Part shown: one piece after another, positions 9,372 to 36,531 of the stretch | Numbering within the stretch: the first letter of the stretch is position 1 | How the letters are laid out: each line of letters begins with the position of its first letter | IMG/VR virus record: IMGVR_UViG_3300028533_000484 | Span: 64,001 to 128,000 of that record | Strand: one strand, 5' to 3' | Source: a virus | Taxonomy: Duplodnaviria > Caudoviricetes | Length of the DNA: 64,000 nt | Program-made: the position numbers and the translations under genes | Notes under the pieces: generated by a model | What the model saw: only the letters and a program-made list of their open reading frames with translations | Told to the model about the DNA's origin: nothing | Database searches by the model: none

Positions 9372-10658
9372 TTGAAAGATATGCGACAACGATTAATAAC
9401 ATTTAACAAATCTGAATTAGGAACATGGGATGAATTACTCAGTTGCAATTGGTTAGTAACTACAACTTCTGAAGGAGACGAACATTTACTGATAGGTGAT
9501 ATAGCTGTAACAGATGCTATAAAAGATATTCAATTTGAAGTTTCTTATCGAGATACACATCGTGAGCCCAAAGATCTTATTCTAGATATCCATCAAACAG
9601 ATACTATCGCAAATTGGAAAAAATTTGAAAAGCATTTTGAGAATTGTCTTAAAAAAGTTCTCAAAGCCTCTGATGCAGAGAACAAACTTTTTGCTTTAAA
9701 GTCCTTTTTATGGAATAAAATGGCTAATGAGCTAATTAAAACTATCAAAGCCGAAAAGGAACCTTCATTACCGACTTCAATGGTCTGGTATCACACATTT
9801 AAAGAACCTTTTACAACTTACGATGGTGTAGTTTGGGGAAATGTAGACCTTCTAGTTGATTTTTCAGAAAGCACGCTTACTAGTGCTGCAACAAGATGGT
9901 TTACAACTCGTACAAATTACGGCCAAGCTGATAAAGATGATCTTGGAAACTATCTATTATACTACATTTACGGTACCTTAACTTACAAATACTCTATTCC
10001 AACAAATCCAGATTTAATTAATTATAAAGTTGAAGAAATGAGCACAGGCAGCTTTTTAAGTGAACTTGAAAAACATTTTAGCATACCTTCTAGAACTGAA
10101 ATCAAAGCAAGTTTGAAAGCTTTTTTAATTGACAAGTTTTGGATTGCGGATTATAGATTACCTCCAACAGCAGCTAGGATTTTACAAGAGTTGGAAGCTA
10201 CAAAAAAGCAGAAGGAACAGATAGCAAATGAATTTGAAATGCTGTTTAAATTGAGTTCTTTTCCAATTGATAACTACGTTGAAGAGTCAAAGCTTCAAAC
10301 TGCATTAAATTCATTAAAAAGACAACTTCGTAATTTTAATGTGCGAACAATTACCGATTATTCATCTGTAGGCTTTTCTACAATTTATGAAGTTACTTGC
10401 GACTTTTTAGATTATCGTTTTACAATAACTCTTAATACGAAAAATAAATATGTCGTAGATTCTTTTGAAATTAAAGTTGAATCCGAAGGAAGAGTAATCT
10501 TCAATACTGTATTTACTTGCTGCGAAGGTAATGTTGGGGAGTTTGCAGTAATAATGTCTCAATACCTAGGAGATGTTTATTTGGCAAAAGCTTTTAAGAG
10601 ACACATCGAGTATAAAATCGAAAGAAGTACTGGATGCGAAATTACTTGGAGGTCTTAA
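9372..10658 (+). CDS. hypothetical protein
   Basis: 428-aa ORF, AGGAGG RBS (start may be ATG at 9381). Confidence 0.75.
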   Translation: MKDMRQRLITFNKSELGTWDELLSCNWLVTTTSEGDEHLLIGDIAVTDAIKDIQFEVSYRDTHREPKDLILDIHQTDTIANWKKFEKHFENCLKKVLKASDAENKLFALKSFLWNKMANELIKTIKAEKEPSLPTSMVWYHTFKEPFTTYDGVVWGNVDLLVDFSESTLTSAATRWFTTRTNYGQADKDDLGNYLLYYIYGTLTYKYSIPTNPDLINYKVEEMSTGSFLSELEKHFSIPSRTEIKASLKAFLIDKFWIADYRLPPTAARILQELEATKKQKEQIANEFEMLFKLSSFPIDNYVEESKLQTALNSLKRQLRNFNVRTITDYSSVGFSTIYEVTCDFLDYRFTITLNTKNKYVVDSFEIKVESEGRVIFNTVFTCCEGNVGEFAVIMSQYLGDVYLAKAFKRHIEYKIERSTGCEITWRS

Positions 10659-17199: not shown

Positions 17200-17472
17200 T
17201 TAACCTTGTTCTATTGACAGGAATGCATCTCTAATTTTTTGACGTATCCTAATTAAACTTTCTTCGCTACGATATGTGCCACAATCGTGATTTGCCCAAG
17301 CTTCTAGATAGTCAATATAATTGAAAACTTCTTTTCCAATTTTTACTACTTTTTCGTTACCGCGAACATACCAAAATGGTTTACTACAAAAGTCAGGAGC
17401 TCTTGTTGGTAAACTATTCTGTATTAATGTTTCAGATTGTTCTGAATTTTTCGAATCAAATGGACTCAACAT
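17200..17472 (-). CDS. hypothetical protein
   Basis: Start overlaps chaperonin stop; GGAGG RBS. Confidence 0.65.
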   Translation of the reverse strand: MLSPFDSKNSEQSETLIQNSLPTRAPDFCSKPFWYVRGNEKVVKIGKEVFNYIDYLEAWANHDCGTYRSEESLIRIRQKIRDAFLSIEQG

Positions 17473-19115
17473 TACTTATAAGCCTCCACTACTTTTCTAT
17501 CATTCATATCGTAAGATACGTTGCAATTTGCATTTACGATAACACCATCTGAAACGATGAATGCTCCAATTTCAGAAGCTGAATACTGTAGCACAAAGAG
17601 CTCAATTGCTGCTGAGTCAATAACTTGTGCTTTCTTTAAATCTTCAATTTTTTCTGTTCTTACATTGTAACCTGTCCAGAAGTCTTTTTCATGCGCAATT
17701 TGCTGAACAATGTACTGATAATCATCTGGTTTAACAGAACCTACAAGTCTTTTAGCTAAAGATCTCATTGTTGAAAGAACAGCTTCATAACCTTTTCTAA
17801 TTGCTTCTGTTTCAAAGTTGTGTGGTTTCTCAGAAAGGTATTGAGCTGTCTTTAATAGTGCAGTACCTCCGCCAGGTAAAATACCATACTTAATTGCTCC
17901 AGCAACTGAGTTCTGCGCATCCAAAATTGCTGCACATTTTTCTTCTTTTTCTGTAGGAGTTAGAGCACCAACATAAATCGTAGCAATACCGCCGCTTAAT
18001 CTAGCTAGTCTCTCTTTTAGACCTTCCATTACAGAAATCTGAAGACCGTCATCTGTATCGATTGTTTTCTTAAGTTTTTCAATGTATAGAGCATATTCTT
18101 TTGCTTTATCTTCTTCAAGCTCATCTACTTGTACAATATTTGTTTCCTCTACTGATGAAACAATGTGTTTAGCAACACCAAGATCTGAAATATCTGGAAC
18201 AACATCTATTGCACTTTCAACAGAAGGTACAACCTTGGTACCTACAGTAATTGCTAAATCCATTAGTGCATCGTGAAGATCAACATGACTGAAAGATGTA
18301 CCAGGTGACATTAAAAGAAGAATTTTCTTTTTAGCTGCTTGTGAAAAGAGTTTTGGTTCGAAGTAAGGTGCAACAAGTACTAAAGTCTTACCTACAAGTT
18401 TTGCAGCTTCAACATATGCTTCAAGAGGTTCAAGATTATCAACACCGGTAGCTAGAACCATAATTGCTGGATTATCAACGACTGCAGTATCGTCAATAAC
18501 ATTTGTGATGAACAATGAACTAGGAATACCACCTGTCCATTTAATGCCGTTTGAAACTTCTACATAAGATTTACCACTACGACTCCAAGAGTCTGCTAGA
18601 ACAACTGAACCATTTTCTCCAATTGAATTATAAGCTTCAGCAATTAGATTTGAAAGCTCTTCATTTCCGTTTGTAGAAACATTTGCAACTGCTTTGTAAT
18701 CCACTGTTGTATCTACCATGCTCTTTAAGTATTCAACAGCATCTGCAGTCGCCATATTTAAACCTTTACGAACTTCTCCAGCATTAACACCTAGATTAAC
18801 GAGCTTTGTCAACTCTCTTAAAAGACTTGTTGCATAAATTGTTGTAGTTGTTGTACCATCGCCGGCCATTGCATCTACTTTGGCAATAATATCTTTTACA
18901 AGAAGTATTCCAGATTTTAAGAAAGGATCATCTGAGTCTACTTTGTTTGCAACTGTAGCTCCATCCTTTAAAATCAGTGGTCTTATTCCACCATCATAAA
19001 TAAGAACATTGTGTCCTGCAGGTCCAAGAGTGGATGAAACAATTTTTTCCAACATTTCAGCCCCTTCAACAATCTTGTTTCGTGCCTCAGGACCATAAAC
19101 TATATGTTTATTCAT
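17472..19115 (-). CDS. groEL: phage chaperonin, GroEL-like
   Basis: STLGPAG, KDGATVA, AGDGTTT, ERLARLSGG, PGGG motifs. Confidence 0.92.
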   Translation of the reverse strand: MNKHIVYGPEARNKIVEGAEMLEKIVSSTLGPAGHNVLIYDGGIRPLILKDGATVANKVDSDDPFLKSGILLVKDIIAKVDAMAGDGTTTTTIYATSLLRELTKLVNLGVNAGEVRKGLNMATADAVEYLKSMVDTTVDYKAVANVSTNGNEELSNLIAEAYNSIGENGSVVLADSWSRSGKSYVEVSNGIKWTGGIPSSLFITNVIDDTAVVDNPAIMVLATGVDNLEPLEAYVEAAKLVGKTLVLVAPYFEPKLFSQAAKKKILLLMSPGTSFSHVDLHDALMDLAITVGTKVVPSVESAIDVVPDISDLGVAKHIVSSVEETNIVQVDELEEDKAKEYALYIEKLKKTIDTDDGLQISVMEGLKERLARLSGGIATIYVGALTPTEKEEKCAAILDAQNSVAGAIKYGILPGGGTALLKTAQYLSEKPHNFETEAIRKGYEAVLSTMRSLAKRLVGSVKPDDYQYIVQQIAHEKDFWTGYNVRTEKIEDLKKAQVIDSAAIELFVLQYSASEIGAFIVSDGVIVNANCNVSYDMNDRKVVEAYK

Positions 19116-28244: not shown

Positions 28245-28288
28245 ATATATATGATTTAGTTCTTACAAACAGAAAAAAGAACTTTTTT

Positions 28289-28317
28289 GAAATATTTATA
28301 TAGTTATAAACTATAAT
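28289..28317 (+). promoter_or_regulatory. GAAA-N18-CTATAAT promoter of the tRNA region
   Basis: Same motif and spacing as at least 10 other intergenic sites. Confidence 0.65.
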
Positions 28318-28357
28318 ATTACTGAAGCAAATATTAAATTAAAGTTTCTTTAACAAC

Positions 28358-28429
28358 GCATCTATAGCTTAATGGATAAAGCTTCTACCTCCTAAGTAGA
28401 GGATGCAGGTTCGATTCCTACTAGGTGCT
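28358..28429 (+). tRNA. tRNA-Arg(CCT)
   Basis: Cloverleaf; TCTAC-CTCCTAA-GTAGA. Confidence 0.9.
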
Positions 28430-28530
28430 AAAGGTTGGCAGTCAAACCTTTAAGACTCCATTTTTTCTTCTGGAAATATTTTGATTTATTTTCAGAAGAA
28501 AATTAAACTTATAACAAGTGAGGTACAGAA

Positions 28531-28692
28531 TTGGAAAGATTGGAAAGAATTGTAGATTGGCTTTTCGATACACATGATAAGGTTTTGTTTGTTGAAGATA
28601 TTAGTGGTTTTGGAGCTCTATTTCTTTTTGGAACTATGATTTTTGTTGCTGTGTTGTGTTGCAGCAAAAAGCTCAGAAGCAAGTTCTTTTAG
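28531..28692 (+). CDS. small membrane protein (53 aa, not in ORF track)
   Basis: GAGGT RBS, TTG start, hydrophobic segment. Confidence 0.5.
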   Translation: MERLERIVDWLFDTHDKVLFVEDISGFGALFLFGTMIFVAVLCCSKKLRSKFF

Positions 28693-28750
28693 GTGAATTT
28701 TTCAGATTGCACTAACTATATTACAAGCATAAATTGAAGGAGTAGATATC

Positions 28751-28861
28751 ATGACAAAGACATTTGTAACATCTAATAACATGACAAGTTCTTATCAATG
28801 CTGTGATACTATCCAATATTCATATTGTTCGTCAATCTATTTTAGAGGTGACAACAGTTGA
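28751..28861 (+). CDS. leader peptide 1 (36 aa) MTKTFVTSNNMTSSYQCCDTIQYSYCSSIYFRGDNS
   Basis: Promoter motif 28695-28722, GAAGGAG RBS, stop overlaps antiterminator arm. Confidence 0.75.
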   Translation: MTKTFVTSNNMTSSYQCCDTIQYSYCSSIYFRGDNS

Positions 28862-28923
28862 CCTTGTGCAAATAAAAAATGTTTGAAGAGTTGCACAGGG
28901 TTCCTAGAAATAGGAACTTTTTT
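28860..28923 (+). promoter_or_regulatory. attenuator 1: antiterminator (28860-28871/28891-28902) competing with terminator (28897-28923)
   Basis: GACCTTGTGCAA pairs TTGCACAGGGTT; AGGGTTCCTA-GAAA-TAGGAACTTT-TTT. Confidence 0.75.
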
Positions 28924-28940
28924 ATTCTTCAAACAAGTTT

Positions 28941-29021
28941 GGGTCAGTCGAGCAATTGGTTGCTCAGCGGACTGTAAATCCGTGGCCTATGGCATTGGGG
29001 GTTCGAATCCCTCCTGGCCCA
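28941..29021 (+). tRNA. tRNA-Tyr(GTA)
   Basis: Cloverleaf with variable arm; GCGGA-CTGTAAA-TCCGT. Confidence 0.92.
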
Positions 29022-29116
29022 ATATCACATTAAATCAACCAGTTTGTGAAAAGAGTTAATTTTTTTAACTATAATTAAATTATTAGCACTAATTAATTAA
29101 AGAAGGAGAAAAGATT

Positions 29117-29260
29117 ATGAAAAATTTTGTAACAAAACATTCGAACATAATTACAAAACAGATGTGTCAATCTGCTCTCCATACACTTTGCAATATTTTT
29201 GCTGACTCTGATTTTCAAACTAATGGGAAAGTGAAATGCGAAGGAGACTTCAAGTCTTGA
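29117..29260 (+). CDS. leader peptide 2 (47 aa) MKNFVTKHSNIITKQMCQSALHTLCNIFADSDFQTNGKVKCEGDFKS
   Basis: Promoter motif 29048-29075, GAAGGAG RBS, last codons and stop form antiterminator arm. Confidence 0.75.
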   Translation: MKNFVTKHSNIITKQMCQSALHTLCNIFADSDFQTNGKVKCEGDFKS

Positions 29261-29321
29261 GATAATTAATAATTTAGTTATTTACAAGGCTTGAATCGAA
29301 AAGGTTCAAGCCTTTTATTTT
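29249..29321 (+). promoter_or_regulatory. attenuator 2: antiterminator (29249-29295) competing with terminator (29286-29321)
   Basis: TTCAAGTCTTG pairs CAAGGCTTGAA; AAGGCTTGAATC-GAAAA-GGTTCAAGCCTT-TTATTTT. Confidence 0.8.
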
Positions 29322-29325
29322 GCTT

Positions 29326-29398
29326 AGGATGTTAGTACACCGGTTTAGTATTTTAGTCTGATAAACTAAAGAAAGAAGTTCAACTCTTCTACATCCTA
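29326..29398 (+). tRNA. tRNA-Ile(GAT)
   Basis: AGGATGT/ACATCCT acceptor; TTAGT-CTGATAA-ACTAA. Confidence 0.85.
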
Positions 29399-29402
29399 TA
29401 TA

Positions 29403-29629
29403 GTTAAACAAAAGCGTCGATTAAAACTGGTTCGAGTAATTGAGGTAACGTTCAGTAAATGAAAGAACAAAGATAATAACGGACTGAGGTAGAAACATTG
29501 TCAATCTTGGGTGTCCTGCCCGTCAGAAGAGTAATACTCTTCTTCAAGAATAAGGTGACGGATTGATGGTGTTGAAGGTTGGCTGGAGACGGCAGCGATA
29601 AATCCAGTTGAGTTTGACTTATTTTTAAC
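29403..29629 (+). ncRNA. candidate structured ncRNA (~225 nt)
   Basis: Ends pair (AACTGG/CCAGTT, GTTAAA/TTTAAC); inner CCGTCA/TGACGG and GAAGAG/CTCTTC. Confidence 0.45.
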
Positions 29630-29696
29630 ATTTTTTATGAAACAGCAATTAGCTTTTCAACTATAATATATATGTTAAAAATATTAAATTATTTAT

Positions 29697-29770
29697 AGTT
29701 CCATAGAACAACAGGTCCAGTTCACGGCCCTTTCAAGGCTGAGATCCGAGTTCAAGTCTCGGTGGAACTA
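29697..29770 (+). tRNA. tRNA-Glu(TTC)
   Basis: CGGCC-CTTTCAA-GGCTG; own promoter motif at 29639-29667. Confidence 0.9.
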
Positions 29771-29970
29771 AAGCTTATGTTCCTAACGGTTCGACTCCGT
29801 ATGAAAATCTTGAACTGTATAAGTGCGGTATAAGCCCGATGAGATGTCAAGATATAAACGGCATAGGAAAGGAAGCATCTGACTTAAGGTTTCAGGATAC
29901 AGTAGTAAACCTAGCGAAGTAGCGAAGGCCAAGTGAAAAGCGAACTCTTGCAAGAATCCCTTATAATGGG

Positions 29971-30051
29971 TGAAAGTTATAGTATAATGGAAATACAACA
30001 GCCGAGGTTATCTGGGCTGGAGATTGAAGGTTCGAGTCCTTCTGACTTTCA
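29971..30051 (+). ncRNA. tRNA-like RNA with aberrant anticodon arm
   Basis: Acceptor, D and T arms intact; CAGCC-GAGGTTATCTG-GGCTG (11-nt loop). Confidence 0.7.
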
Positions 30052-30056
30052 TATTT

Positions 30057-30130
30057 GCATCAGTAGCTCAGTTGGTTAGAGCGCCTGCCTTCCAAGCAGG
30101 ATGTCGAGGGTTCGAGCCCCTTCTGGTGCT
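30057..30130 (+). tRNA. tRNA-Gly(TCC)
   Basis: CCTGC-CTTCCAA-GCAGG. Confidence 0.95.
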
Positions 30131-30132
30131 CT

Positions 30133-30298
30133 AGGTGCAGCAATGCCGTGGATAGCACGTTACTAGGACTAATCTAATTGTACAAAGGAATTAGCCAGAG
30201 GATATGGTAACATACCTCGTTCTACGACTAGGTTGTTAAGGATGTTATACCTGACGTGAGACAGCCATAAAGGTTTCGTTTAGAAGATTGCTGCACCT
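30133..30298 (+). ncRNA. candidate structured ncRNA (166 nt)
   Basis: Perfect 12-bp closing stem AGGTGCAGCAAT/ATTGCTGCACCT with internal hairpins. Confidence 0.55.
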
Positions 30299-30373
30299 TT
30301 AAGCAGGTTGAAACGAATAGAAACTGAATCGAAAGATTCTAATGTAGGAGTAAGCACAAGAAGCTTATTGCAT

Positions 30374-30446
30374 GGGATATTGGTAAAATGGTGCATACGC
30401 CTGACTGTCACTCAGGAGAGCGCGAGTTCAATTCTCGCATATCCCG
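30374..30446 (+). tRNA. tRNA-Asp(GTC)
   Basis: CCTGA-CTGTCAC-TCAGG. Confidence 0.9.
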
Positions 30447-30455
30447 TTTTTTCTT

Positions 30456-30551
30456 GGACTGGTCGTATAGAGGTCAATTACAGGAGGAATGCGGTCCATT
30501 GGACCAAAGCCTCCTGCCATAGCTACGTAGGTTCGAATCCTACCCAGTCCG
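30456..30551 (+). ncRNA. tRNA-like RNA with hairpin inserted in the anticodon loop
   Basis: GGACTGG/CCAGTCC acceptor, perfect T arm; GGAGG-AATGC-GGTCC-ATT-GGACC-AAAG-CCTCC. Confidence 0.7.
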
Positions 30552-30560
30552 TAATGCATT

Positions 30561-30634
30561 GGAGTGTTAGCTCAGTTGGTAGTAGCAAGCGGCTGTTAAC
30601 CGCTAGGTCGCAGGTTCGAGTCCTGCACACTCCG
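30561..30634 (+). tRNA. tRNA-Asn(GTT)
   Basis: AGCGG-CTGTTAA-CCGCT. Confidence 0.95.
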
Positions 30635-30642
30635 AAAACCTT

Positions 30643-30710
30643 AACATCTTACCTTTATGGTCCTAGGGCTGTAATGTTAGGTGGGGACCACCGGAGATGT
30701 TCCTAACATT
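30643..30710 (+). ncRNA. compact pseudoknotted element
   Basis: AACATCTT/GAGATGTT, TGGTCCT/GGGACCA, loop AATGTTAGG pairs CCTAACATT. Confidence 0.55.
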
Positions 30711-30717
30711 GTTTTAT

Positions 30718-30790
30718 GCTACCTTAGCAAAATGGCTAATGCGCGTGATTTGTAATCTCGAGATTGTGGGTTCGAGTCCTACAGGTAGCT
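30718..30790 (+). tRNA. tRNA-Thr(TGT)
   Basis: CGTGA-TTTGTAA-TCTCG (one stem mismatch). Confidence 0.88.
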
Positions 30791-30792
30791 TT

Positions 30793-30865
30793 CGCGGATG
30801 GGTGAAACGGAATTCATGCCAGCCTCATAAGCTGAAGATAGCAGGTTCGACTCCTGTATCCGCAA
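30793..30865 (+). tRNA. tRNA-Met(CAT), initiator-like (C1:A72)
   Basis: CGCGGAT/ATCCGCA; CCAGC-CTCATAA-GCTGA. Confidence 0.85.
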
Positions 30866-30867
30866 TA

Positions 30868-30995
30868 AAAACATTTAGCGGTTTGTGAAAGTGGAAGGCA
30901 TTCCTTTGGACGACATGAAAGTCATAGCAAATCATAATCGAAACTGGTAAGCCTTAGCGCTGAGTACACTTACCGTTGAGTAGGCTAAATGTTTT
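30868..30995 (+). ncRNA. candidate structured ncRNA (128 nt)
   Basis: Perfect 12-bp closing stem AAAACATTTAGC/GCTAAATGTTTT; inner GGTAAG/CTTACC. Confidence 0.5.
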
Positions 30996-30999
30996 ACAT

Positions 31000-31071
31000 C
31001 GCCTGTTACCCAAGCAGTAAGGGAGCGGTCTGCAAAACCGTAATTCATAGGTGCAAATCCTATACAGGTGT
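31000..31071 (+). tRNA. tRNA-Cys(GCA)
   Basis: GCGGT-CTGCAAA-ACCGT, U73. Confidence 0.9.
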
Positions 31072-31075
31072 CTAA

Positions 31076-31231
31076 GGAATGGTAGCTTAGTCAAAAATAG
31101 TTTAGAAACTGCGCTGGCCGGTCGGCGGTTATAAATACTGAATTATTCAGTGTTAGGAAGCCTAAATGAAATATGCAGGAAAAGCGCTAACGAAACGTTA
31201 GAGAGTGTAAGTTCGAATCTTACCTATTCCT
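31076..31231 (+). ncRNA. tRNA-like RNA with ~90-nt D-loop insertion and collapsed anticodon loop
   Basis: GGAATGG/CTATTCC, GCTT/AAGC, CTAACG-AAA-CGTTAG, GTAAG-TTCGAAT-CTTAC. Confidence 0.65.
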
Positions 31232-31298
31232 TGAGGTAGATATAGGTGTTCGGTGCAAGTCCGGATTTAAGATAGTCAAGCCTTAAGCTACCATAAAA

Positions 31299-31505
31299 GT
31301 GGAGACTTCTGTGACTATACAGAAAACTATAGCAACATCTCAGCCAAGTGTTAATAATTGCTCTTTAGATAGTAAAATCGAAAGAGCTTATATGAAAGGC
31401 GCGCTTGCAATGTATGAGTTTTTGCAAGAAGAAAAATTAGTGCCTATTATAACAACTGGGTGTCAAGAAATGTTATGGAAAAAGTTTAAGGAAAAGAATA
31501 GCTAA
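31299..31505 (+). CDS. small hypothetical protein
   Basis: ORF between RNA genes; start uncertain. Confidence 0.5.
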   Translation: METSVTIQKTIATSQPSVNNCSLDSKIERAYMKGALAMYEFLQEEKLVPIITTGCQEMLWKKFKEKNS

Positions 31506-31566
31506 TTCGCATGCTTTCTTGATATATTGGATTACAGGTCTATGAAAATGACTTGTTTTTTTACAT

Positions 31567-31638
31567 TCCTCCATAGTGTAGTTGGTAGCACTTGAGAATT
31601 TGGGTCTCACAGGCTGGGTTCGAGTCCTAGCGGAGGAA
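31567..31638 (+). tRNA. tRNA-Gln(TTG)
   Basis: TGAGA-ATTTGGG-TCTCA. Confidence 0.88.
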
Positions 31639-31640
31639 AT

Positions 31641-31701
31641 AAAGCAAAGGTTGTTCCTATTAAAAGTTATTTTATTGGAAAAATTGTGTACAACCCGCTT
31701 T
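31641..31701 (+). repeat. GTTGTTCCTATT...TACAAC motif copy 1
   Basis: Conserved with 34987-35062 and 35394-35470. Confidence 0.7.
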
Positions 31702-31707
31702 AATTTT

Positions 31708-31780
31708 GGGCTGTTCGTATATCGGCTTATTACACGGGCTTTGCAAGCCTGATAGAGGGGTTCAACTCCCCTACGGTCCA
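31708..31780 (+). tRNA. tRNA-Ala(TGC)
   Basis: G3:U70 pair; CGGGC-TTTGCAA-GCCTG. Confidence 0.92.
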
Positions 31781-31810
31781 CTAAAAAAGTCTTCTGTTAG
31801 AAGATTTTAT

Positions 31811-31892
31811 GGGTTTGTGTTGGAATTGGTATACATCGGGGTCTTAGAAGCCTCGGCCGAAAGGATTGAGAGTTCGAGTCTCTCCAAGCCCA
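31811..31892 (+). tRNA. tRNA-Leu(TAG)
   Basis: GGGGT-CTTAGAA-GCCTC, variable arm. Confidence 0.9.
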
Positions 31893-31896
31893 TCAT

Positions 31897-31968
31897 CCAA
31901 ACTTGGTGTCAGCGGTAGCACAGCGGACTGAAGATCCGTTAGCTGGGGTTCAAATCCCTGAGTTTGGA
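31897..31968 (+). tRNA. tRNA-Phe(GAA)
   Basis: GCGGA-CTGAAGA-TCCGT. Confidence 0.85.
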
Positions 31969-31975
31969 CTAATAT

Positions 31976-32048
31976 GTTGAAGAAGTTCATACGGTTGAAC
32001 GCTGCCCTCATAAGGCAGATGTAGTAGGTCCGAATCCTGCCTTCAGCA
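31976..32048 (+). tRNA. tRNA-Met(CAT), elongator (or Ile2 if lysidine-modified)
   Basis: CTGCC-CTCATAA-GGCAG. Confidence 0.85.
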
Positions 32049-32050
32049 AT

Positions 32051-32123
32051 GTACCCATAGTGTTAGTGGTTAGCACGGAAGATTGTGGATCTTCAAGGTC
32101 GGGTTCAAATCCCGATGGGCACC
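32051..32123 (+). tRNA. tRNA-His(GTG)
   Basis: GAAGA-TTGTGGA-TCTTC, C73. Confidence 0.9.
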
Positions 32124-32130
32124 TTTATTT

Positions 32131-32166
32131 GGAAAGTTGGCACAGCGGCGACTGCAACGGTCTTGA
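32131..32166 (+). pseudogene. 5' half of a tRNA-Ser(TGA), truncated just after the anticodon
   Basis: GGAAAGT-TG-GCAC-AGCGGCGAC-TGC-A-ACGGT-CT-TGA then unrelated T-rich sequence. Confidence 0.75.
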
Positions 32167-32187
32167 TTCTTTTTTACCAATTAATGT

Positions 32188-32928
32188 ATGGGAAGAATTA
32201 AAGATACAGAAAAGATTTTACAAAATGCTAAAGAAGGTAATTGTATTTTCTGCAGCAAAGTTTGCAAAAATCAAAATAGCTTTAGGCAGCATCAAGTACG
32301 TTGTAAGTACAATCCAAATAGAAGAGCTATATGGTTGCACAACGATGTTTGGAGAGCTTCTGTTAAGAATAGAAAAGTAGCTGTACAGGTAAAAGATCAG
32401 TTTATTTGTAAATTTTGTAAAAAATGTTGGCTTACTACTGTAAGCGGTTATAAAAATCATGAACTGCATTGCAGAGAGAATCCTTGCAGAAAAGCAGGAT
32501 CCTTTACAGGCAGAACTGTTTCGGAAGAAACTAAAAAGAAAATCTCTGCGACAGGTAAGAGTCGAAAATCCTTAGGAGGATATCGATTTGGAAGTGGTAG
32601 AGGTAAAAAAGGAACATATAAGGGTTATTATTGTGATTCATCTTGGGAACTCGCTTATGTGATTTTCAATCTTGAACATAATATAAAGTTTGAAAGAAAC
32701 GAAGAACTTTTTCCTTATGAGTTTAATGATGAACAGCATAAATATAAGCCTGATTTTATTGAAGGCGACATTTATGTTGAAGTAAAAGGGTATTATACTG
32801 AACAAGTCAATGCAAAGACAAAAGCCTTTCCTTATAAACTTAAGTTCCTTGATAAAGAGACAATTAAGCCGTATATTGACTATGTTGTATCAAAATATGG
32901 TCAAGATTATATACGACTTTATGAATAA
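32188..32928 (+). CDS. free-standing homing-type endonuclease (two Cys/His fingers, NUMOD3-like motif, PD-(D/E)XK domain)
   Basis: CIFC..HQVRC, CKFC..HELHC, VSEETKKKIS, DSSWE...YKPDF...YVEVKG. Confidence 0.8.
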   Translation: MGRIKDTEKILQNAKEGNCIFCSKVCKNQNSFRQHQVRCKYNPNRRAIWLHNDVWRASVKNRKVAVQVKDQFICKFCKKCWLTTVSGYKNHELHCRENPCRKAGSFTGRTVSEETKKKISATGKSRKSLGGYRFGSGRGKKGTYKGYYCDSSWELAYVIFNLEHNIKFERNEELFPYEFNDEQHKYKPDFIEGDIYVEVKGYYTEQVNAKTKAFPYKLKFLDKETIKPYIDYVVSKYGQDYIRLYE

Positions 32929-33019
32929 GGAAGTGTTGAGCAGTTGGTAGCTCTCCTGACTTGAAATCAGGCGATTGCCTTGGAAAGGCGTCATGCAGGT
33001 TCGAATCCTGTCGCTTCCG
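32929..33019 (+). tRNA. tRNA-Ser(TGA)
   Basis: CCTGA-CTTGAAA-TCAGG, long variable arm, G73. Confidence 0.92.
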
Positions 33020-33053
33020 TAAATCTTTGTTGTAATTAAATATAAAGATTTTA

Positions 33054-33240
33054 ATAGAACTTGCAACACTTAGAGGCATTAAAGTTTTGAACTCGTCACT
33101 CAAGACTGCTGCTCAAAGAGATGATGAAGCTCGTGTCCCACGGCAAGTCTATAATGGTGATTCACAGTAGCCACTCAACTTCATCAGAGAAAAGAATCCC
33201 GCCGAGTAGGACGTTCGATACAGATTCTGAGTACTGTGAA
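33054..33240 (+). ncRNA. two adjacent stem-closed candidate ncRNA domains
   Basis: ATAGAACTTGC/GCAAGTCTAT and TTCACAGTA/TACTGTGAA. Confidence 0.4.
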
Positions 33241-33244
33241 ACAA

Positions 33245-33317
33245 TGGACTCGTGCTCGATGGTTTTGAGCAACGGTCTTATAAGCCGTCACACAGAGTTC
33301 AATTCTCTGGGGTCCTA
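33245..33317 (+). tRNA. tRNA-Ile(TAT)
   Basis: ACGGT-CTTATAA-GCCGT; U1:U72 mismatch. Confidence 0.8.
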
Positions 33318-33429
33318 AAAAACGAGTTAAGGAATATAATATGAAGAAGAAACAGAGGCCTTAACTTTCTGTTCAAGTCCATTGGAATAGAAAGTGGCCA
33401 GATTAAATGGAAACACAATTTATTTTAAT

Positions 33430-33506
33430 GGACCGTTAGCTCAGTCTGGGTTAAGAGCAATGCCCTTTTAAGGCGTGGGTCGTGAGTTCGAATCTCACAC
33501 GGTTCA
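33430..33506 (+). tRNA. tRNA-Lys(TTT) copy 1
   Basis: ATGCC-CTTTTAA-GGCGT. Confidence 0.93.
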
Positions 33507-33511
33507 ACCTT

Positions 33512-33586
33512 CTACCCGTGACGCAGTCTGGTTAGCGTACAAAACTTTTAATTTTGGGGTCGTGAGTTCGAATCTCACCGGGTAGA
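33512..33586 (+). tRNA. tRNA-Lys(TTT) copy 2
   Basis: CAAAA-CTTTTAA-TTTTG. Confidence 0.9.
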
Positions 33587-33590
33587 CTAC

Positions 33591-33662
33591 CCGCTTATAA
33601 CTCAACGGTAGAGTGGCGAACTCTTAATTCGCAGGTTCTCAGTTCAAATCTGAGTAGGCGGA
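33591..33662 (+). tRNA. tRNA-Lys(CTT)
   Basis: GCGAA-CTCTTAA-TTCGC. Confidence 0.93.
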
Positions 33663-33676
33663 CTTTTATAAAAAAT

Positions 33677-33749
33677 ATGAGTATGGTATAATGGATAGTG
33701 CCTTTGGCTACGAACCAAATGAATGGGAGTTCGATTCTCTCTACTCACA
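33677..33749 (+). tRNA. tRNA-Arg(ACG)
   Basis: TTTGG-CTACGAA-CCAAA. Confidence 0.85.
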
Positions 33750-33755
33750 CAATTT

Positions 33756-33827
33756 CGTTCTCTAACTCAATGGTGGAGTGCCGCTTTTACACAGCGGAGG
33801 TTGTAGGTTCAAGTCCTACGGGAACGA
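33756..33827 (+). tRNA. tRNA-Val(TAC)
   Basis: CCGCT-TTTACAC-AGCGG. Confidence 0.92.
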
Positions 33828-33834
33828 CTTTAGG

Positions 33835-34239
33835 TGTCAAAGTAACTTAAAAGGGTTTGACAAAATCGATACGACCAGAGCACTGCTGCAGCGTCCCTCC
33901 TGGTTTTGTGTAGGCCTAAAACTATATTTTTGATATAAAGGTGTGCTCTGACCTAGCTTAGATTAGGTGTGAAGGGATAATCTAGCGACAACAAAATGTT
34001 GTAAGAACTAAAGAGAATTTATGCAGTAGTTACTAAAAGTATGACGGTTAAGTGGATGTTCCGCTTCCGTAGAACTGCCAAGGCACGAATCTACAACTCA
34101 AGTAGTTGTATTTATCAGTAAAGGTGATTAAAAGAAAAGCATAATTTTAATCTGATTTTAATATCAAACCAAGACCTTGCAGGCGGGTGTGTGCATTACG
34201 AGCACCCTAAGCGGCTTCACCGCATCGGGCATTTTTTTT
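33835..34239 (+). ncRNA. ORF-free structured region, one or more candidate ncRNAs
   Basis: TGTCAAA/TTTGACA, CAGAGCAC/GTGCTCTG, TACAACT/AGTTGTA, GGGTG/CACCC hairpins, ends in T-run. Confidence 0.4.
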
Positions 34240-34429
34240 GAAAACTATAATGAAATAAAAACCTGTAAGGTAATAGATGTGACAGTCTAGGAAGTAATCA
34301 GGTGTTTTCTAGCTTTCGTAAACTAGATATTGGAGTGCTACGTAAGTTATAGATATGAATTTATGTATGTGGAAGCTTCCTAAATTCTTTATTTATAACA
34401 TGCCAAGAAGTCGAAACAGTAGCAATTTT

Positions 34430-34503
34430 GGTCTATTGGAGAAGTTGGAGTACTCGCCTGACTGTCACTCAGGAAATCACAGGTTCAAGTCCCGTATAGA
34501 CCG
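34430..34503 (+). tRNA. tRNA-Asp(GTC) copy 2
   Basis: CCTGA-CTGTCAC-TCAGG. Confidence 0.9.
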
Positions 34504-34531
34504 TAATCAAAAGCTTGTACGAGGTATAAAA

Positions 34532-34699
34532 ATGAAAGTTTTGAAAAAAATATTTCTTTTCATTAAAAAAGCTTTTTTAATTTTAACCGAAGAAAACCCA
34601 AAAGACAAGAATTGTTTAAATTGTGGTTGGAGAAATTCTAAAGATAGATATGCTTGCAAATTGTGTAGTCCAACAGATTTATCTGAATGGATTCCGTAA
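34532..34699 (+). CDS. 55-aa Cys-containing protein (start moved from 34355)
   Basis: GAGGT RBS before ATG 34532; CLNC...CKLC; the longer frame overlaps tRNA-Asp. Confidence 0.6.
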   Translation: MKVLKKIFLFIKKAFLILTEENPKDKNCLNCGWRNSKDRYACKLCSPTDLSEWIP

Positions 34700-34731
34700 G
34701 CGAAAACTATATTAATACCAATAATATAAAT

Positions 34732-34804
34732 GACTGTGTAGCTCAACTGGATGAGCACAAACCTTCTAAGTTTGCGGATGCAGGTTCGAATCCTGTCACA
34801 GTTA
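34732..34804 (+). tRNA. tRNA-Arg(TCT)
   Basis: CAAAC-CTTCTAA-GTTTG. Confidence 0.92.
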
Positions 34805-34806
34805 AA

Positions 34807-34980
34807 TAAAGAATGTATACCTCTATTGCTACGAGTCTATGGAATTCCTCGTTGAAATAAAAAGGTAGTACTTGGGGGAACATTGAGAGTTCGATGATGG
34901 TATAATTCTCTCTGAACTGATGAGGAAGGATTCAGTTGAGTTGACTAGCAGATAGCAATCTAGTCTCAATTCCTTTTACA
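34807..34980 (+). ncRNA. duplicated ~175-nt structured RNA, copy A
   Basis: Near-identical to 35939-36111, with a compensatory change. Confidence 0.65.
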
Positions 34981-34986
34981 AGAGTG

Positions 34987-35062
34987 AAGTGCATAGGTTG
35001 TTCCTATTTAAAAGCTACTTAGGGCTCGTAAGGGCTCTGCCATTTTTATACAACTCGCACTT
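34987..35062 (+). repeat. GTTGTTCCTATT...TACAAC motif copy 2
   Basis: Closed by AAGTGC/GCACTT. Confidence 0.7.
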
Positions 35063-35072
35063 TTTATTTTAC

Positions 35073-35143
35073 TCCTCCGTAGTGTAATGGTAGCACGCGA
35101 GATTCTGGTTCTTAAAGTGAGGGTTCGAATCCTTCCGGAGGAA
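35073..35143 (+). tRNA. tRNA-Gln(CTG)
   Basis: GAGA-TTCTGGT-TCTT; TCCTCCG/CGGAGGA. Confidence 0.9.
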
Positions 35144-35276
35144 AGCACATTTGCAGAGGCCTACTAGCAAAATTGAGGAACGGCAATTCCAATAGATTAG
35201 CGAAAAATGGTTGTAGGGACAAGCTCATACCGTTGCCGCGAATGAGTGAGAGTGAGTTCAACTCCCGCTAGGTGCT
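35144..35276 (+). ncRNA. candidate RNA ending in a T-arm/acceptor-like module
   Basis: AGCAC/GTGCT ends, GTTCAACTC T-loop, CGGCAA/TTGCCG potential pseudoknot. Confidence 0.4.
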
Positions 35277-35286
35277 CTTTTTATAT

Positions 35287-35367
35287 CGGTCTGTGGTGTA
35301 ATTGGCAGCCACGCATGACTTAGGATCATGTGTCTTTGACGTGAGAGTTCGAGTCTCTCCAGGCCGA
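35287..35367 (+). tRNA. tRNA-Leu(TAG) copy 2
   Basis: CATGA-CTTAGGA-TCATG, variable arm. Confidence 0.9.
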
Positions 35368-35376
35368 CTACTTAAA

Positions 35377-35495
35377 ACATTGAAAAAGATCTAGCATAAG
35401 TTGTTCCTATTTTATGAGTGAACTGGATCTTCACGGCTACCACCGTGAATGTATAGAGTATACAACTCGCAGCCTTTTGTACCTTTTTCAATGTT
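35377..35495 (+). repeat. GTTGTTCCTATT...TACAAC motif copy 3 inside a 13-bp outer stem
   Basis: AACATTGAAAAAG/CTTTTTCAATGTT. Confidence 0.7.
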
Positions 35496-35583
35496 AAAAG
35501 GCGACTAATTGATGTGGTTTAAAAACCTATTTAGGTGGTCTTAATGAAGCTTAAGTGTACTCCAGCCTTTATAAAATCTGTTG

Positions 35584-35856
35584 CAAGAAAACCTATTGAT
35601 CTTTAGTCAATAGGATGAATTGCAACTCTATATTTAAAGATGATTGAAATCCAAGTTAGACACAGGGATCGATAAATTCGGTGCAAATCATAAAACTTAG
35701 CTAGACATAGCTCTAGCATAGTACCCAGGGGACCTGGGGAAATTATAAATGCCTGTGGAGAACCACGAAGTTCTATGAAGCAGGAAATTTCCGTAGCATC
35801 GCTGAAAACAGTGTAAATACGGAAGCTGATGGATCTTCAGTCCATCGGTGGTTCAC
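35584..35856 (+). mobile_element. non-autonomous IS200/IS605-family remnant (both end hairpins plus omegaRNA-like segment, no transposase/TnpB ORF)
   Basis: Left CCTATTGA-TCTTTAG-TCAATAGG; right CTGATGGA-TCTTCAG-TCCATCGG...GTTCAC; GCCTGTGGAG...TGAAGCAGGAA. Confidence 0.7.
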
Positions 35857-35938
35857 CTTTAACAAAATGGCCAGGGAGCCCTAACGGATGCTGGGCGGCT
35901 TAATGATGTTACTGAATGGTGGTAACCCATTTTGTTTA

Positions 35939-36111
35939 TAAAGAATGTATACCTCTATTGCTACGAGTCTATGGAATTCCTCGTTGAAATAAAAAAGCAA
36001 TACTTGGGGGAGCGTTGTGAGTTCGATGAAGGTTAACTCTCTCTGAACCGATGAAGGAAGGATTCGGGAGATTTGACTAGCAGATAGCAATCTAGTCTTA
36101 ATTCCTTTACA
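35939..36111 (+). ncRNA. duplicated ~175-nt structured RNA, copy B
   Basis: See copy A. Confidence 0.65.
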
Positions 36112-36145
36112 TGAACAGTATAAGTTCTAAAAACCGTTGGATAGT

Positions 36146-36397
36146 TTAGGTAGCGTGAGTACCTAAGAGTACTTGGGGAAAAGAAGTATGAGCTCAAGGA
36201 TTGGCTGGTATGAAAAATTACCGAGACATCAGATAACTATGGAGCTTGCAGGCCATAGTTACCATAAAGGCCAAAATAAAGGTTATCCTGTGATGAATAG
36301 GAGTAGAAAGTTTTACCAAATGCAAGCTTGTTGAATTGACAACCAATAGACTTATCTTGACTGAAGCATAGCTTGAAAAAGTTGACTTTGGATAAGT
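36146..36397 (+). ncRNA. candidate multi-hairpin ncRNA with pseudoknot
   Basis: TTAGGTA/TACCTAA, TAACTATGG/CCATAGTTA with loop AGCTTGCA pairing TGCAAGCT, ACTTATC/GATAAGT. Confidence 0.5.
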
Positions 36398-36492
36398 ACA
36401 AGAAAAACTTCGGAATTTTTTTTGTGGAGGAAAAAAAATTATCCTCCCAGAGCTATTCTAACCTTAAATAGCTCTCGTCTTTTATCATTTGA

Positions 36493-36531
36493 CCCTCTAT
36501 AACGAGTAATGTCGGTAGAGGGTATTTTTTT
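36493..36531 (+). terminator. terminator closing the RNA island
   Basis: ACCCTCTAT...GTAGAGGGT followed by ATTTTTTT. Confidence 0.7.

What the first reader, a model, noticed from the sequence alone, without database searches (positions are those of the whole stretch)
29048..29398. Second tandem attenuator upstream of tRNA-Ile and the rest of the array
Seen: the same architecture with different sequence. Promoter, GAAGGAG RBS, and a 47-codon leader starting MKNFVT (cf. MTKTFVT) and ending TGA. The last codons and stop begin a ~21-bp hairpin (29249-29295) whose 3' strand CAAGGCTTGAA sequesters most of the 5' arm of a 12-bp terminator (29286-29314 plus TTATTTT). tRNA-Ile(GAT) follows 5 nt later. 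The leader has ATA-ATT and ATT codons but is otherwise codon-diverse. Two dissimilar sequences with identical logic argue for selection rather than chance.
Basis: partly seen in the sequence, partly recalled or inferred. Interest (0 to 1): 0.9.

Follow-up and report, generated by a model that had tools for sequence, protein, structure and literature searches.

The report
Leader-ORF attenuator before phage tRNA-Ile
A huge uncultured gut phage places a small translated "test" gene and a switchable transcription stop signal directly in front of its tRNA-Ile gene, and the same design recurs before three other tRNA genes in this phage and its relatives. The phage therefore probably ties tRNA production to how well ribosomes are translating, but this has not been shown experimentally.

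Summary
The window carries, in order:
- a promoter-like motif at 29046-29075;
- the ribosome-binding site GAAGGAG;
- a 47-codon ORF (29117-29260) ending in TGA;
- a 21-bp hairpin (29249-29295, -21 kcal/mol) that contains the stop codon and sequesters the whole 5' arm of a strong intrinsic terminator (29286-29314 plus T-tract);
- tRNA-Ile, starting 4 nt after the T-tract.

The antiterminated and terminated folds have nearly equal energy. This competition is not chance: no more than 2 of 1000 shuffles match it, and it ranks first of 38 terminators in the genome.

I found the same cassette four times: before tRNA-Tyr and tRNA-Ile here, before tRNA-Leu(TAG) in a close relative, and at the head of a 22-24-tRNA array in a distant phage. 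The helix sequences differ but the geometry is the same, and all four ORFs stop at TGA.

Between relatives the switch segments diverge 2.4%, against about 25% at neighbouring synonymous sites. The leader ORFs show pN/pS near 1 and no indels. This suggests the act of translation matters, not the peptide sequence.

The best reading is a ribosome-dependent attenuator in which a ribosome at the stop codon masks the antiterminator. It has no cognate-codon bias and no 1:2 hairpin. Function is untested, and it probably gates tRNA-Ile rather than the whole array. The scan has noted similar cassettes in other phages (unchecked AI notes). I found no paper describing this.

The parts
29046..29075 (+). 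Promoter-like site of unit 2: GTGAAA, 18 nt, TATAAT. The -10 lies within the 9-mer AACTATAAT (29067-75).
   Evidence: Consensus scan, 10 of 12 matches. AACTATAWT recurs 15-45 nt upstream of many genes and tRNAs in this genome and in the distant lineage. The block is conserved in relatives from about 29043 onward, even where 2.7 kb is inserted just upstream.
29102..29108 (+). Shine-Dalgarno sequence GAAGGAG, 8 nt before the ATG.
   Evidence: Sequence. Only 0.9% of ATGs in the genome have AAGGAG at this spacing.
29117..29260 (+). Leader ORF of 47 codons with a TGA stop.
   Evidence: The ORF is intact in all relatives. pN/pS is 0.97 and pS is 0.07, against pS of about 0.25 in neighbouring genes. 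It has no indels. No Pfam family matches.
29249..29295 (+). Antiterminator hairpin: 21 bp with one bulge. Its 5' arm contains the last three codons and the TGA.
   Evidence: -21.2 kcal/mol. It forms as soon as 29290-29296 is transcribed. Shuffle p is at most 0.002. The only changes in relatives are a loop base, one G-U to A-U, and one A-U to G-U.
29286..29321 (+). Intrinsic terminator: 12-bp stem with 5 G-C pairs, a 5-nt loop and a T-tract (TTTTATTTT).
   Evidence: The stem is invariant in relatives.
29325..29399 (+). tRNA-Ile(GAT), the gene gated by the terminator.
   Evidence: ARAGORN and Rfam, 58 bits. It is 100% identical in relatives. There is no room for a promoter between the terminator and the tRNA.
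28693..28722 (+). Promoter-like site of sister unit 1: GTGAAT, then AACTATATT.
   Evidence: The promoter and ribosome-binding-site region is recognisably homologous to that of the L014 cassette.
28751..28861 (+). Sister leader ORF of 36 codons with a TGA stop. It is a weak paralogue of the 47-codon leader.
   Evidence: BLASTP E=0.003. pN/pS is 0.94.
28860..28902 (+). Antiterminator of unit 1: a 12-bp helix starting at the second base of the TGA. It overlaps 6 nt of the terminator's 5' arm.
   Evidence: About -15 kcal/mol. Shuffle p is 0.005-0.05.
28897..28928 (+). Terminator of unit 1: 10-bp stem plus T-tract, 19 nt before tRNA-Tyr (28940-29022).
   Evidence: Relatives carry one extra C that strengthens the stem.
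29659..29667 (+). Next promoter-like AACTATAAT motif, 29 nt before tRNA-Glu. It is the probable downstream limit of what unit 2 controls.

Best explanation
Unit 2 is a ribosome-dependent transcription attenuator in front of tRNA-Ile.

Proposed mechanism:
1. Transcription starts about 7 nt after the -10 element, and a ribosome loads at the strong Shine-Dalgarno site and translates the 47-codon leader.
2. As RNA polymerase transcribes 29285-29295, this segment pairs with 29249-29259. That forms a 21-bp antiterminator, which keeps the terminator's 5' arm occupied, so polymerase reads through into tRNA-Ile.
3. If instead the leading ribosome has already reached the UGA stop, which lies inside the antiterminator's 5' arm, its footprint covers that arm. 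The terminator then folds, and transcription ends in the T-tract 4 nt before the tRNA.

The result is that fast, complete leader translation gives termination, while slow, stalled or absent translation gives tRNA synthesis. This would be a feedback of translation capacity on phage tRNA supply.

Shown here: the parts, their energetics, their non-random occurrence, and their conservation and recurrence.
Inferred: that the ORF is translated, that the terminator works in the host, and that ribosome position sets the outcome.
For: 1. The two folds are mutually exclusive and nearly equal in energy: -56.5 for the antiterminated fold and -56.3 kcal/mol for the terminated fold. The antiterminator is the minimum-energy fold of every transcript ending between 29290 and 29308.
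2. Shuffles give p<=0.002, and the element ranks 1 of 38 terminators in the genome.
3. Four cassettes with unrelated helix sequences share the same layout:
   - the ORF is 36-47 codons behind AAGGA(G);
   - the antiterminator's 5' arm starts -9 to +1 nt from the stop;
   - the distance from stop to terminator is 25-35 nt;
   - the distance from terminator to tRNA is 10-19 nt;
   - the shuffle p-values are 0.05, <0.001, 0.004 and 0.023.
4. One of the four heads a 22-24-tRNA array in a distant phage.
5. All four stops are TGA, which makes up 15% of stops in this genome (P about 5e-4).
6. Masking a ribosome footprint at the stop leaves only the terminator able to fold, in all four cassettes.
7. 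Divergence from the 85% relative:
   - switch segments, 2.4-2.5%;
   - tRNAs, 0-1.2%;
   - other spacers in the array, 7-19%;
   - synonymous sites of neighbouring genes, about 25%.
8. The leader ORFs have pN/pS of 0.94-0.97, against 0.08-0.36 in neighbouring genes. They have no indels, although 6 indels lie in the flanking non-ORF parts of the units.
9. The antiterminator and terminator stems are invariant in 9 variants of the distant lineage, while the DNA just downstream differs.
10. The few changes in the helices keep pairing.
11. There is no room for a promoter between terminator and tRNA, yet the tRNA is perfectly conserved, so read-through must occur.
12. Weak hint only: contigs from metatranscriptome libraries bridge both terminators into the tRNAs, and one starts at the predicted transcription start, 28729.
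Against: - There is no functional or read-level RNA evidence. The contigs from RNA libraries may derive from DNA.
- Ile is not enriched in the leader (p=0.6), and Tyr is only weakly enriched in the sister leader (p=0.09). Amino-acid diversity is ordinary.
- There is no anti-antiterminator, only a -3.7 kcal/mol hairpin.
- The terminated state is 3-5 kcal/mol more stable locally, and the direct refolding barrier is only 4.5-7.5 kcal/mol. The antiterminator may therefore only partly block termination.
- A pN/pS near 1 together with a low pS would also fit an untranslated structured RNA.
- In the 85% relative a 6-nt insertion moves the Shine-Dalgarno site to 14 nt from the ATG.
- The host is unknown, so it is also unknown whether its transcription and translation are coupled.
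- Homologous tRNA-Tyr genes in other distant relatives have no cassette, and a relative whose neighbouring 334-aa protein is 47% identical has no array at this site.
Confidence: 0.55

Rival explanations
1. The unit is a self-contained small gene or dual-function small RNA. It has its own promoter and a leaky terminator. The tRNA is made by constitutive read-through, and the upstream hairpin only stabilises or shapes the 3' end.
For: - The unit has a complete promoter, ribosome-binding site, ORF and terminator.
- The leader RNA is unusually structured: z=-5.1 for unit 2 and -3.7 for unit 1.
- Constraint acts at the nucleotide level throughout the ORF.
- The four leaders share a weak N-terminal likeness.
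Against: - A pN/pS near 1 argues against a functional peptide, and the one Cys that aligns between the paralogues is lost in relatives.
- A stabilising hairpin has no reason to pair with exactly the terminator's 5' arm in four unrelated sequences, or to keep the stop codon in its 5' arm.
- The terminator sits 10-19 nt before a tRNA with no intervening promoter, so the tRNA depends on it.
Confidence: 0.15
2. The switch is a factor-dependent antiterminator, riboswitch-like or protein-dependent. It would bind, for example, a tRNA, a phage protein or a metabolite. The ORF would be incidental.
For: - The terminator and antiterminator alternative is real.
- The leader is highly structured and conserved at the RNA level.
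- No cognate-codon signal was found.
Against: - No Rfam family matches at E<=1, T-box included.
- The antiterminators have no T-box-like bulge.
- This reading does not explain four ORFs of 36-47 codons behind strong Shine-Dalgarno sites, each ending with TGA within 9 nt of the antiterminator's 5' arm, and each free of indels.
Confidence: 0.1
3. The hairpins are RNA-processing or insulation signals. A 21-bp stem could serve as an RNase III site, or the structures could define the 5' flank of the tRNA precursor. They would separate the small mRNA from the tRNA rather than decide whether transcription terminates.
For: - A hairpin of about 21 bp is long enough for RNase III (established knowledge).
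- The elements sit directly 5' of tRNAs that must be processed.
- In unit 1 an outer helix pairs the T-tract with upstream sequence.
Against: - The other three cassettes have 9-14-bp antiterminator helices with large loops or bulges, which are poor RNase III substrates.
- The feature they share is competition with a canonical terminator plus T-tract.
Confidence: 0.08
4. The alternative pairing arose by chance next to an ordinary terminator.
For: The genome is AT-rich and low in complexity. Unit 1 alone is only marginal (p=0.05).
Against: - Unit 2 gives p<=0.002.
- Combining the four cassettes gives p of roughly 1e-5 (my Fisher combination of the values).
- The switch is conserved at close to tRNA level.
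Confidence: 0.02

Closest known systems
Leader-peptide transcription attenuators of enterobacterial amino-acid operons (trpL, pheL, hisL, leuL, thrL, ilv leaders). The pheL model is as described in PMC3082878.
   Same: - A short ORF with a ribosome-binding site.
- An antiterminator (2:3) that competes with an intrinsic terminator (3:4) plus U-tract.
- A ribosome that reaches the stop codon favours the terminator.
- Similar distances from stop codon to terminator.
- A UGA stop is frequent in pheL (PMC3082878).
   Different: - There is no run of regulatory codons for one amino acid.
- There is no 1:2 anti-antiterminator or pause hairpin, so an untranslated leader should read through.
- The gene controlled is a tRNA gene of a phage, not a biosynthetic operon.
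- No Rfam leader family matches.
Ribosome-stalling attenuators of antibiotic-resistance genes in Firmicutes, such as B. subtilis vmlR (PMC9226507).
   Same: A generic slowdown of a ribosome on a small upstream ORF lets an antiterminator form and prevents intrinsic termination. The antiterminator forms first because it is transcribed first.
   Different: - vmlR uses a 3-codon uORF inside an anti-antiterminator hairpin, together with NusG-dependent pausing.
- Here the ORF is 36-47 codons, the stop codon itself lies in the antiterminator arm, and the target is a tRNA.
T-box riboswitches.
   Same: A terminator/antiterminator leader that ties expression to tRNA status.
   Different: - There is no specifier loop, no T-box motif and no Rfam match.
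- The leader carries a translatable ORF.
Leader-ORF cassettes before tRNA operons noted earlier in this scan in other phages, including a giant Caulobacter phage and lake phages (AI notes e1-4038560, e1-3450869, e1-5402593, e1-3258325).
   Same: A small ORF, an antiterminator and a terminator directly upstream of phage tRNA genes.
   Different: - Those notes report leaders written in the codons read by the downstream tRNAs. This one shows no such bias.
- I found no sequence relationship to them, and I did not check them.
Attenuator-like leaders reported in the 1980s upstream of the E. coli tRNA-Phe genes pheU and pheV (recalled from memory; I could not retrieve the papers).
   Same: If my recollection is right, they are a leader with attenuator features in front of a tRNA gene.
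   Different: The recollection is unverified. As recalled, those leaders would be Phe-codon specific and chromosomal, not part of a phage tRNA array.

Membership tests
Ribosome-mediated (leader-peptide) transcription attenuator | A short ORF with a credible translation start lies upstream of the regulated gene. | tested here: met
   GAAGGAG lies 8 nt before the ATG. The ORF is 47 codons in 33% GC DNA. Only 0.9% of ATGs have this Shine-Dalgarno spacing. The ORF is intact and free of indels in relatives.
Ribosome-mediated (leader-peptide) transcription attenuator | An intrinsic terminator lies between the leader ORF and the regulated gene. | tested here: met
   A 12-bp stem (-17.1 kcal/mol) plus TTTTATTTT ends 4 nt before tRNA-Ile. 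This is established by sequence only.
Ribosome-mediated (leader-peptide) transcription attenuator | A mutually exclusive antiterminator overlaps the terminator's 5' arm. | tested here: met
   The 21-bp hairpin pairs with 12 of 12 arm bases. The two folds have nearly equal energy. Shuffle p<=0.002, and the element ranks 1 of 38.
Ribosome-mediated (leader-peptide) transcription attenuator | Ribosome position can decide which fold forms, because the stop or control codons are placed against the antiterminator. | tested here: met
   The stop codon lies inside or within 1 nt of the antiterminator's 5' arm in 4 of 4 cassettes. Masking a ribosome footprint at the stop leaves only the terminator. This is shown by geometry only.
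Ribosome-mediated (leader-peptide) transcription attenuator | The leader is enriched in codons of the sensed amino acid. | tested here: not met
   Ile is 3 of 46 residues, p=0.60. The sister leader has Tyr at 4 of 35, p=0.09. Amino-acid diversity is ordinary.
Ribosome-mediated (leader-peptide) transcription attenuator | An anti-antiterminator or pause hairpin (1:2) is present. | tested here: not met
   Only a 6-bp hairpin of -3.7 kcal/mol overlaps the antiterminator's 5' arm. No such hairpin is seen in the other cassettes.
Ribosome-mediated (leader-peptide) transcription attenuator | Termination frequency responds to translation of the leader. | not testable with these tools
   Only assembled contigs of RNA libraries were available.
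Rfam leader families and T-box (RF00513 and relatives, RF00230) | A match to the covariance model. | tested here: not met
   Apart from the tRNAs, 28250-36500 gave only sub-threshold hits that overlap tRNA genes (Plastid-ycf2, YrlA), and none lies in the leader units.

The most novel reading that the evidence does not exclude
The cassette is a general sensor of translation capacity, not a sensor of one amino acid. The signal would be simply whether a pioneer ribosome reaches, and dwells on, a UGA stop codon embedded in the antiterminator before RNA polymerase reaches the T-tract. Huge phages would use such modular cassettes, placed before single tRNA genes or before whole arrays, to raise their own tRNA output when decoding in the infected cell slows. 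Slowing could come, for example, from host tRNA depletion or cleavage.
Probability: 0.4. Interest if true: 0.85.

Novelty: new variant of a known kind. Interest (0 to 1): 0.7.

Why it matters
Phage tRNA genes are usually treated as constitutive helpers for codon usage or as replacements for depleted host tRNAs. How their expression is controlled is essentially unknown.

A leader-ORF attenuator in front of tRNA genes would mean a virus measures translation performance and adjusts its tRNA supply accordingly. That would extend a textbook bacterial mechanism to a new class of target, in a form with no codon run, no 1:2 hairpin, and a stop codon inside the antiterminator.

The cassette is about 280 nt and self-contained, so it can be tested directly in reporters and in vitro. 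It could also serve as a compact translation-responsive part.

Tried and rejected
- **Known phages.** No similarity outside the tRNAs, and several large proteins gave no tblastn match.
- **IMG/VR scans.** Searches for the terminator, the tRNA-Ile anticodon arm and a neighbouring protein found nothing beyond the window's own record.
- **Chance hits.** The JGI metagenome hit L008 is a 22-nt chance match. The pattern hits L022 and L023 lie inside protein genes.
- **L006.** This relative, whose neighbouring 334-aa protein is 47% identical, has no tRNA array at the syntenic site, and its record could not be searched further.
- **Cognate-codon sensing.** Rejected for unit 2 and weak for unit 1. An 'all amino acids' leader was also rejected.
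- **SD-sequestering helix.** A conserved helix hiding the Shine-Dalgarno site looked attractive in the minimum-energy folds. It is no better than shuffled ORF bodies.
- **Other ORFs.** The 47-aa ORF in the distant lineage (L025:1961-2104) is an unrelated acidic peptide that abuts tRNA-Gly and has no terminator. The terminator before tRNA-Cys in L016 has only a 32-codon ORF without a Shine-Dalgarno site, so I did not count it.
- **RNA-library runs.** These were available only as contigs, so they give no 3' ends, strand or expression levels.
- **Literature.** Searches found no description of attenuators before phage tRNA genes. The recalled pheU and pheV papers could not be retrieved.

Full report
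**Context.** The window is bases 64001-128000 of a 140-kb IMG/VR virus record estimated to be 35% complete. It has 33% GC and encodes a chaperonin, a eukaryotic-type topoisomerase IB and type II topoisomerase subunits. No similarity to any deposited phage was found. Near-identical DNA occurs in animal gut and faecal runs. A 27-tRNA array spans 28358-35368, and a second array of 8 tRNAs lies outside the window.

**The observation.**
- GTGAAA-18-TATAAT at 29046-29075;
- GAAGGAG at 29102-29108;
- ATG at 29117, followed by a 47-codon ORF with TGA at 29258-60;
- a hairpin at 29249-29295, with 21 pairs and one bulged A, at -21.2 kcal/mol;
- a terminator stem at 29286-29314, with 12 bp, at -17.1 kcal/mol, followed by a T-tract;
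- tRNA-Ile(GAT) from 29325/6.

**Energetics.** Full-length folds with the antiterminator (-56.5 kcal/mol) and with the terminator (-56.3 kcal/mol) are nearly equal in energy. For transcripts ending anywhere from 29290 to 29308 the antiterminator is the minimum-energy fold.

**Chance.**
- Shuffling the 60 nt upstream of the terminator's 5' arm matched the observed sequestration in 0 of 1000 trials by folding and 2 of 1000 by duplex energy.
- Among 38 terminator-like hairpins in the whole genome, this one ranks first for energy gained by pairing its 5' arm upstream. The sister element before tRNA-Tyr ranks fourth.

**Promoter.**
- The -10 element is part of a 9-mer, AACTATAWT. This 9-mer recurs 15-45 nt upstream of many start codons and several tRNAs: at 28309, 28714, 29067, 29659 and 34705. 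It also occurs in a distant lineage.
- In relatives that carry a 2.7-kb insertion after tRNA-Tyr, homology resumes at about 29043, just before the -35-like hexamer. Unit 2 is therefore a self-contained module.
- The copy at 29659 precedes tRNA-Glu by 29 nt. The attenuator therefore most likely gates tRNA-Ile and the 260-nt segment after it, not the rest of the array.

**Close relatives.**
- The 47-aa product exists in two other clusters in public assemblies, at 98% and 85% identity. Their contigs were fetched.
- Compared with the 85% relative, the leader ORFs have pN/pS of 0.97 and 0.94, with pS of 0.07 and 0.05. Six neighbouring genes, including the 53-aa ORF just upstream, have pN/pS of 0.08-0.36, and five of them have pS near 0.25 (one has 0.11).
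- Divergence by segment is 2.4-2.5% in the switch segments, 0-1.2% in the tRNAs, 4.6-8.1% in the ORF bodies and 6-19% in the other non-coding parts of the array.
- The only changes within 29240-29324 are one loop base and one G-U to A-U. A further strain variant, 29253 A>G, turns an A-U into a G-U.
- Six indels lie in the non-ORF parts of the two units and none lies in the ORFs.
- Taken together, constraint acts on the RNA, most strongly on the switch. The reading frame is kept, but the peptide sequence is not.

**Recurrence.** I scanned every fetched locus for a terminator within 45 nt upstream of a tRNA, preceded by an ORF with a Shine-Dalgarno site. This recovered the two units here and two more:
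- L002:13534-13718, before tRNA-Leu(TAG);
- L014:563-730, in a distant IMG/VR phage, before tRNA-Leu(CAA). That tRNA is the first of 22-24 tRNAs in the array.

L014 shares little with this genome other than tRNAs and a few weak protein matches. Its promoter and ribosome-binding-site region (AAGGAGTAGAT) is nevertheless homologous to unit 1.

All four cassettes have:
- ORFs of 36-47 codons;
- an antiterminator whose 5' arm starts between -9 and +1 nt of the stop codon;
- 25-35 nt from stop to terminator;
- 10-19 nt from terminator to tRNA.

The helix sequences are unrelated. The shuffle p-values are 0.05, <0.001, 0.004 and 0.023. All four stops are TGA, which is used at 15% of long ORFs in this genome.

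In nine variants of the L014 lineage the antiterminator and terminator stems are invariant, while the DNA immediately downstream differs: alternative tRNA versions in some, and an endonuclease insertion in one.

**Mechanism.**
- Masking a ribosome footprint centred on the stop codon leaves only the terminator able to fold, in all four cassettes. A ribosome held several codons upstream, or no ribosome at all, leaves the antiterminator free to form first.
- This is the 2:3 against 3:4 logic of classical attenuators (PMC3082878). It also follows the rule that the antiterminator forms first because it is transcribed first (PMC9226507).
- It differs in two tested respects. There is no enrichment of cognate codons: Ile p=0.6, Tyr p=0.09, and ordinary amino-acid diversity. 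There is also no anti-antiterminator; the only candidate is a -3.7 kcal/mol hairpin.
- The inferred behaviour is that efficient leader translation ends transcription before the tRNA, and slow or absent translation lets the tRNA be made.

**Cautions.**
- Once the 3' arm exists, the terminated state is 3-5 kcal/mol more stable locally.
- The direct refolding barrier is only 4.5-7.5 kcal/mol, so the antiterminator may only reduce termination.
- The host, and whether it couples transcription with translation, is unknown.

**RNA evidence.** This is weak. Contigs from three metatranscriptome libraries of one study bridge both terminators into the tRNAs. One contig spans 28729-29024, from the predicted start of unit 1 to the 3' end of tRNA-Tyr. 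A DNA-run contig continues across those points. Contigs cannot show ends or expression levels, and DNA carry-over cannot be excluded.

**Comparison with known systems.**
- No Rfam family, T-box included, matches the leaders at E<=1, and no Pfam family matches the peptides.
- Full-text searches found no paper on attenuators before phage tRNA genes.
- I recall 1980s reports of attenuator-like leaders before the E. coli pheU and pheV genes, but I could not retrieve them.
- This scan has earlier, unchecked AI notes of similar cassettes in unrelated phages. Those notes describe leaders that mirror the downstream tRNAs' codons, which this one does not.

**Verdict.** The element is a real, conserved, modular alternative between terminator and antiterminator, tied to a small ORF in front of tRNA genes. 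It is most likely a ribosome-dependent attenuator (confidence about 0.55). Function, and the direction of control, remain to be shown.

Noticed in passing
L002:13534-13738 and L014:563-747: Two further cassettes of leader ORF, antiterminator and terminator. One lies before tRNA-Leu(TAG) in the 85% relative. The other lies before tRNA-Leu(CAA) at the head of a 22-24-tRNA array in a distant phage (IMGVR_UViG_3300021254_000376).
   Followed up: yes
window 28531-28692: A 53-aa ORF with a hydrophobic segment lies between tRNA-Arg(CCT) and unit 1. It is under purifying selection (pN/pS 0.26, pS 0.27), so it is probably a real small membrane protein inside the tRNA array.
   Followed up: partly
window 33341-33364: A 7-codon mini-ORF, MKKKQRP, with AAGGA 7 nt upstream lies 65 nt before three tRNA-Lys genes. 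No terminator follows it. Lys is 9.5% of this proteome, so this may be chance.
   Followed up: partly
window 30269-30367 (also 31200-31294): A non-tRNA segment between tRNA-Gly and tRNA-Asp is 94% identical to L014:955-1053 in the distant phage, which is as conserved as the tRNAs. It is probably an undescribed structured RNA in the array. No Rfam match was found.
   Followed up: no
window 29039-29043: In the L002 lineage and in several sequencing runs, about 2.7 kb is inserted exactly between tRNA-Tyr and the promoter of unit 2. The insert carries a 650-aa LRR protein on the minus strand and a 212-aa ORF on the plus strand.
   Followed up: partly
window 28309, 28714, 29067, 29659, 33920, 34243, 34705 and elsewhere: The 9-mer AACTATAWT recurs upstream of genes and tRNAs with no clear -35 element. 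It is a candidate phage promoter motif and is also present in the distant lineage (L025 about 1935).
   Followed up: partly
window 29400-29658: A 260-nt segment after tRNA-Ile is conserved (6.7% divergence) and relatively GC-rich. It has much higher contig depth than its surroundings in one RNA library (136-150 against 22). Its function is unknown.
   Followed up: no
L025:1961-2104 (= L014 about 1980-2123): A 47-aa, very acidic ORF with its own AACTATATT motif and GGAG site ends 1 nt before tRNA-Gly(CCC). It has no terminator and is unrelated to the leaders.
   Followed up: partly
L016, reverse strand, about 9740-9920: After a sigma-factor-like gene, a strong terminator sits 21 nt before tRNA-Cys, the first tRNA of a cluster. 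Upstream lies a 32-codon ORF without a Shine-Dalgarno site and a weak 6-bp alternative pairing. This may be a degenerate or different version of the cassette.
   Followed up: partly
genome 41194-43484 (outside the window): A second array of 8 tRNAs, including one that ARAGORN reports with an abnormal anticodon loop (tRNA-???). My scan found no leader cassette there.
   Followed up: partly
window 7614-9329; 17472-19115: The phage encodes a eukaryotic-type topoisomerase IB (three Pfam domains) and a Cpn60/GroEL-family chaperonin.
   Followed up: no
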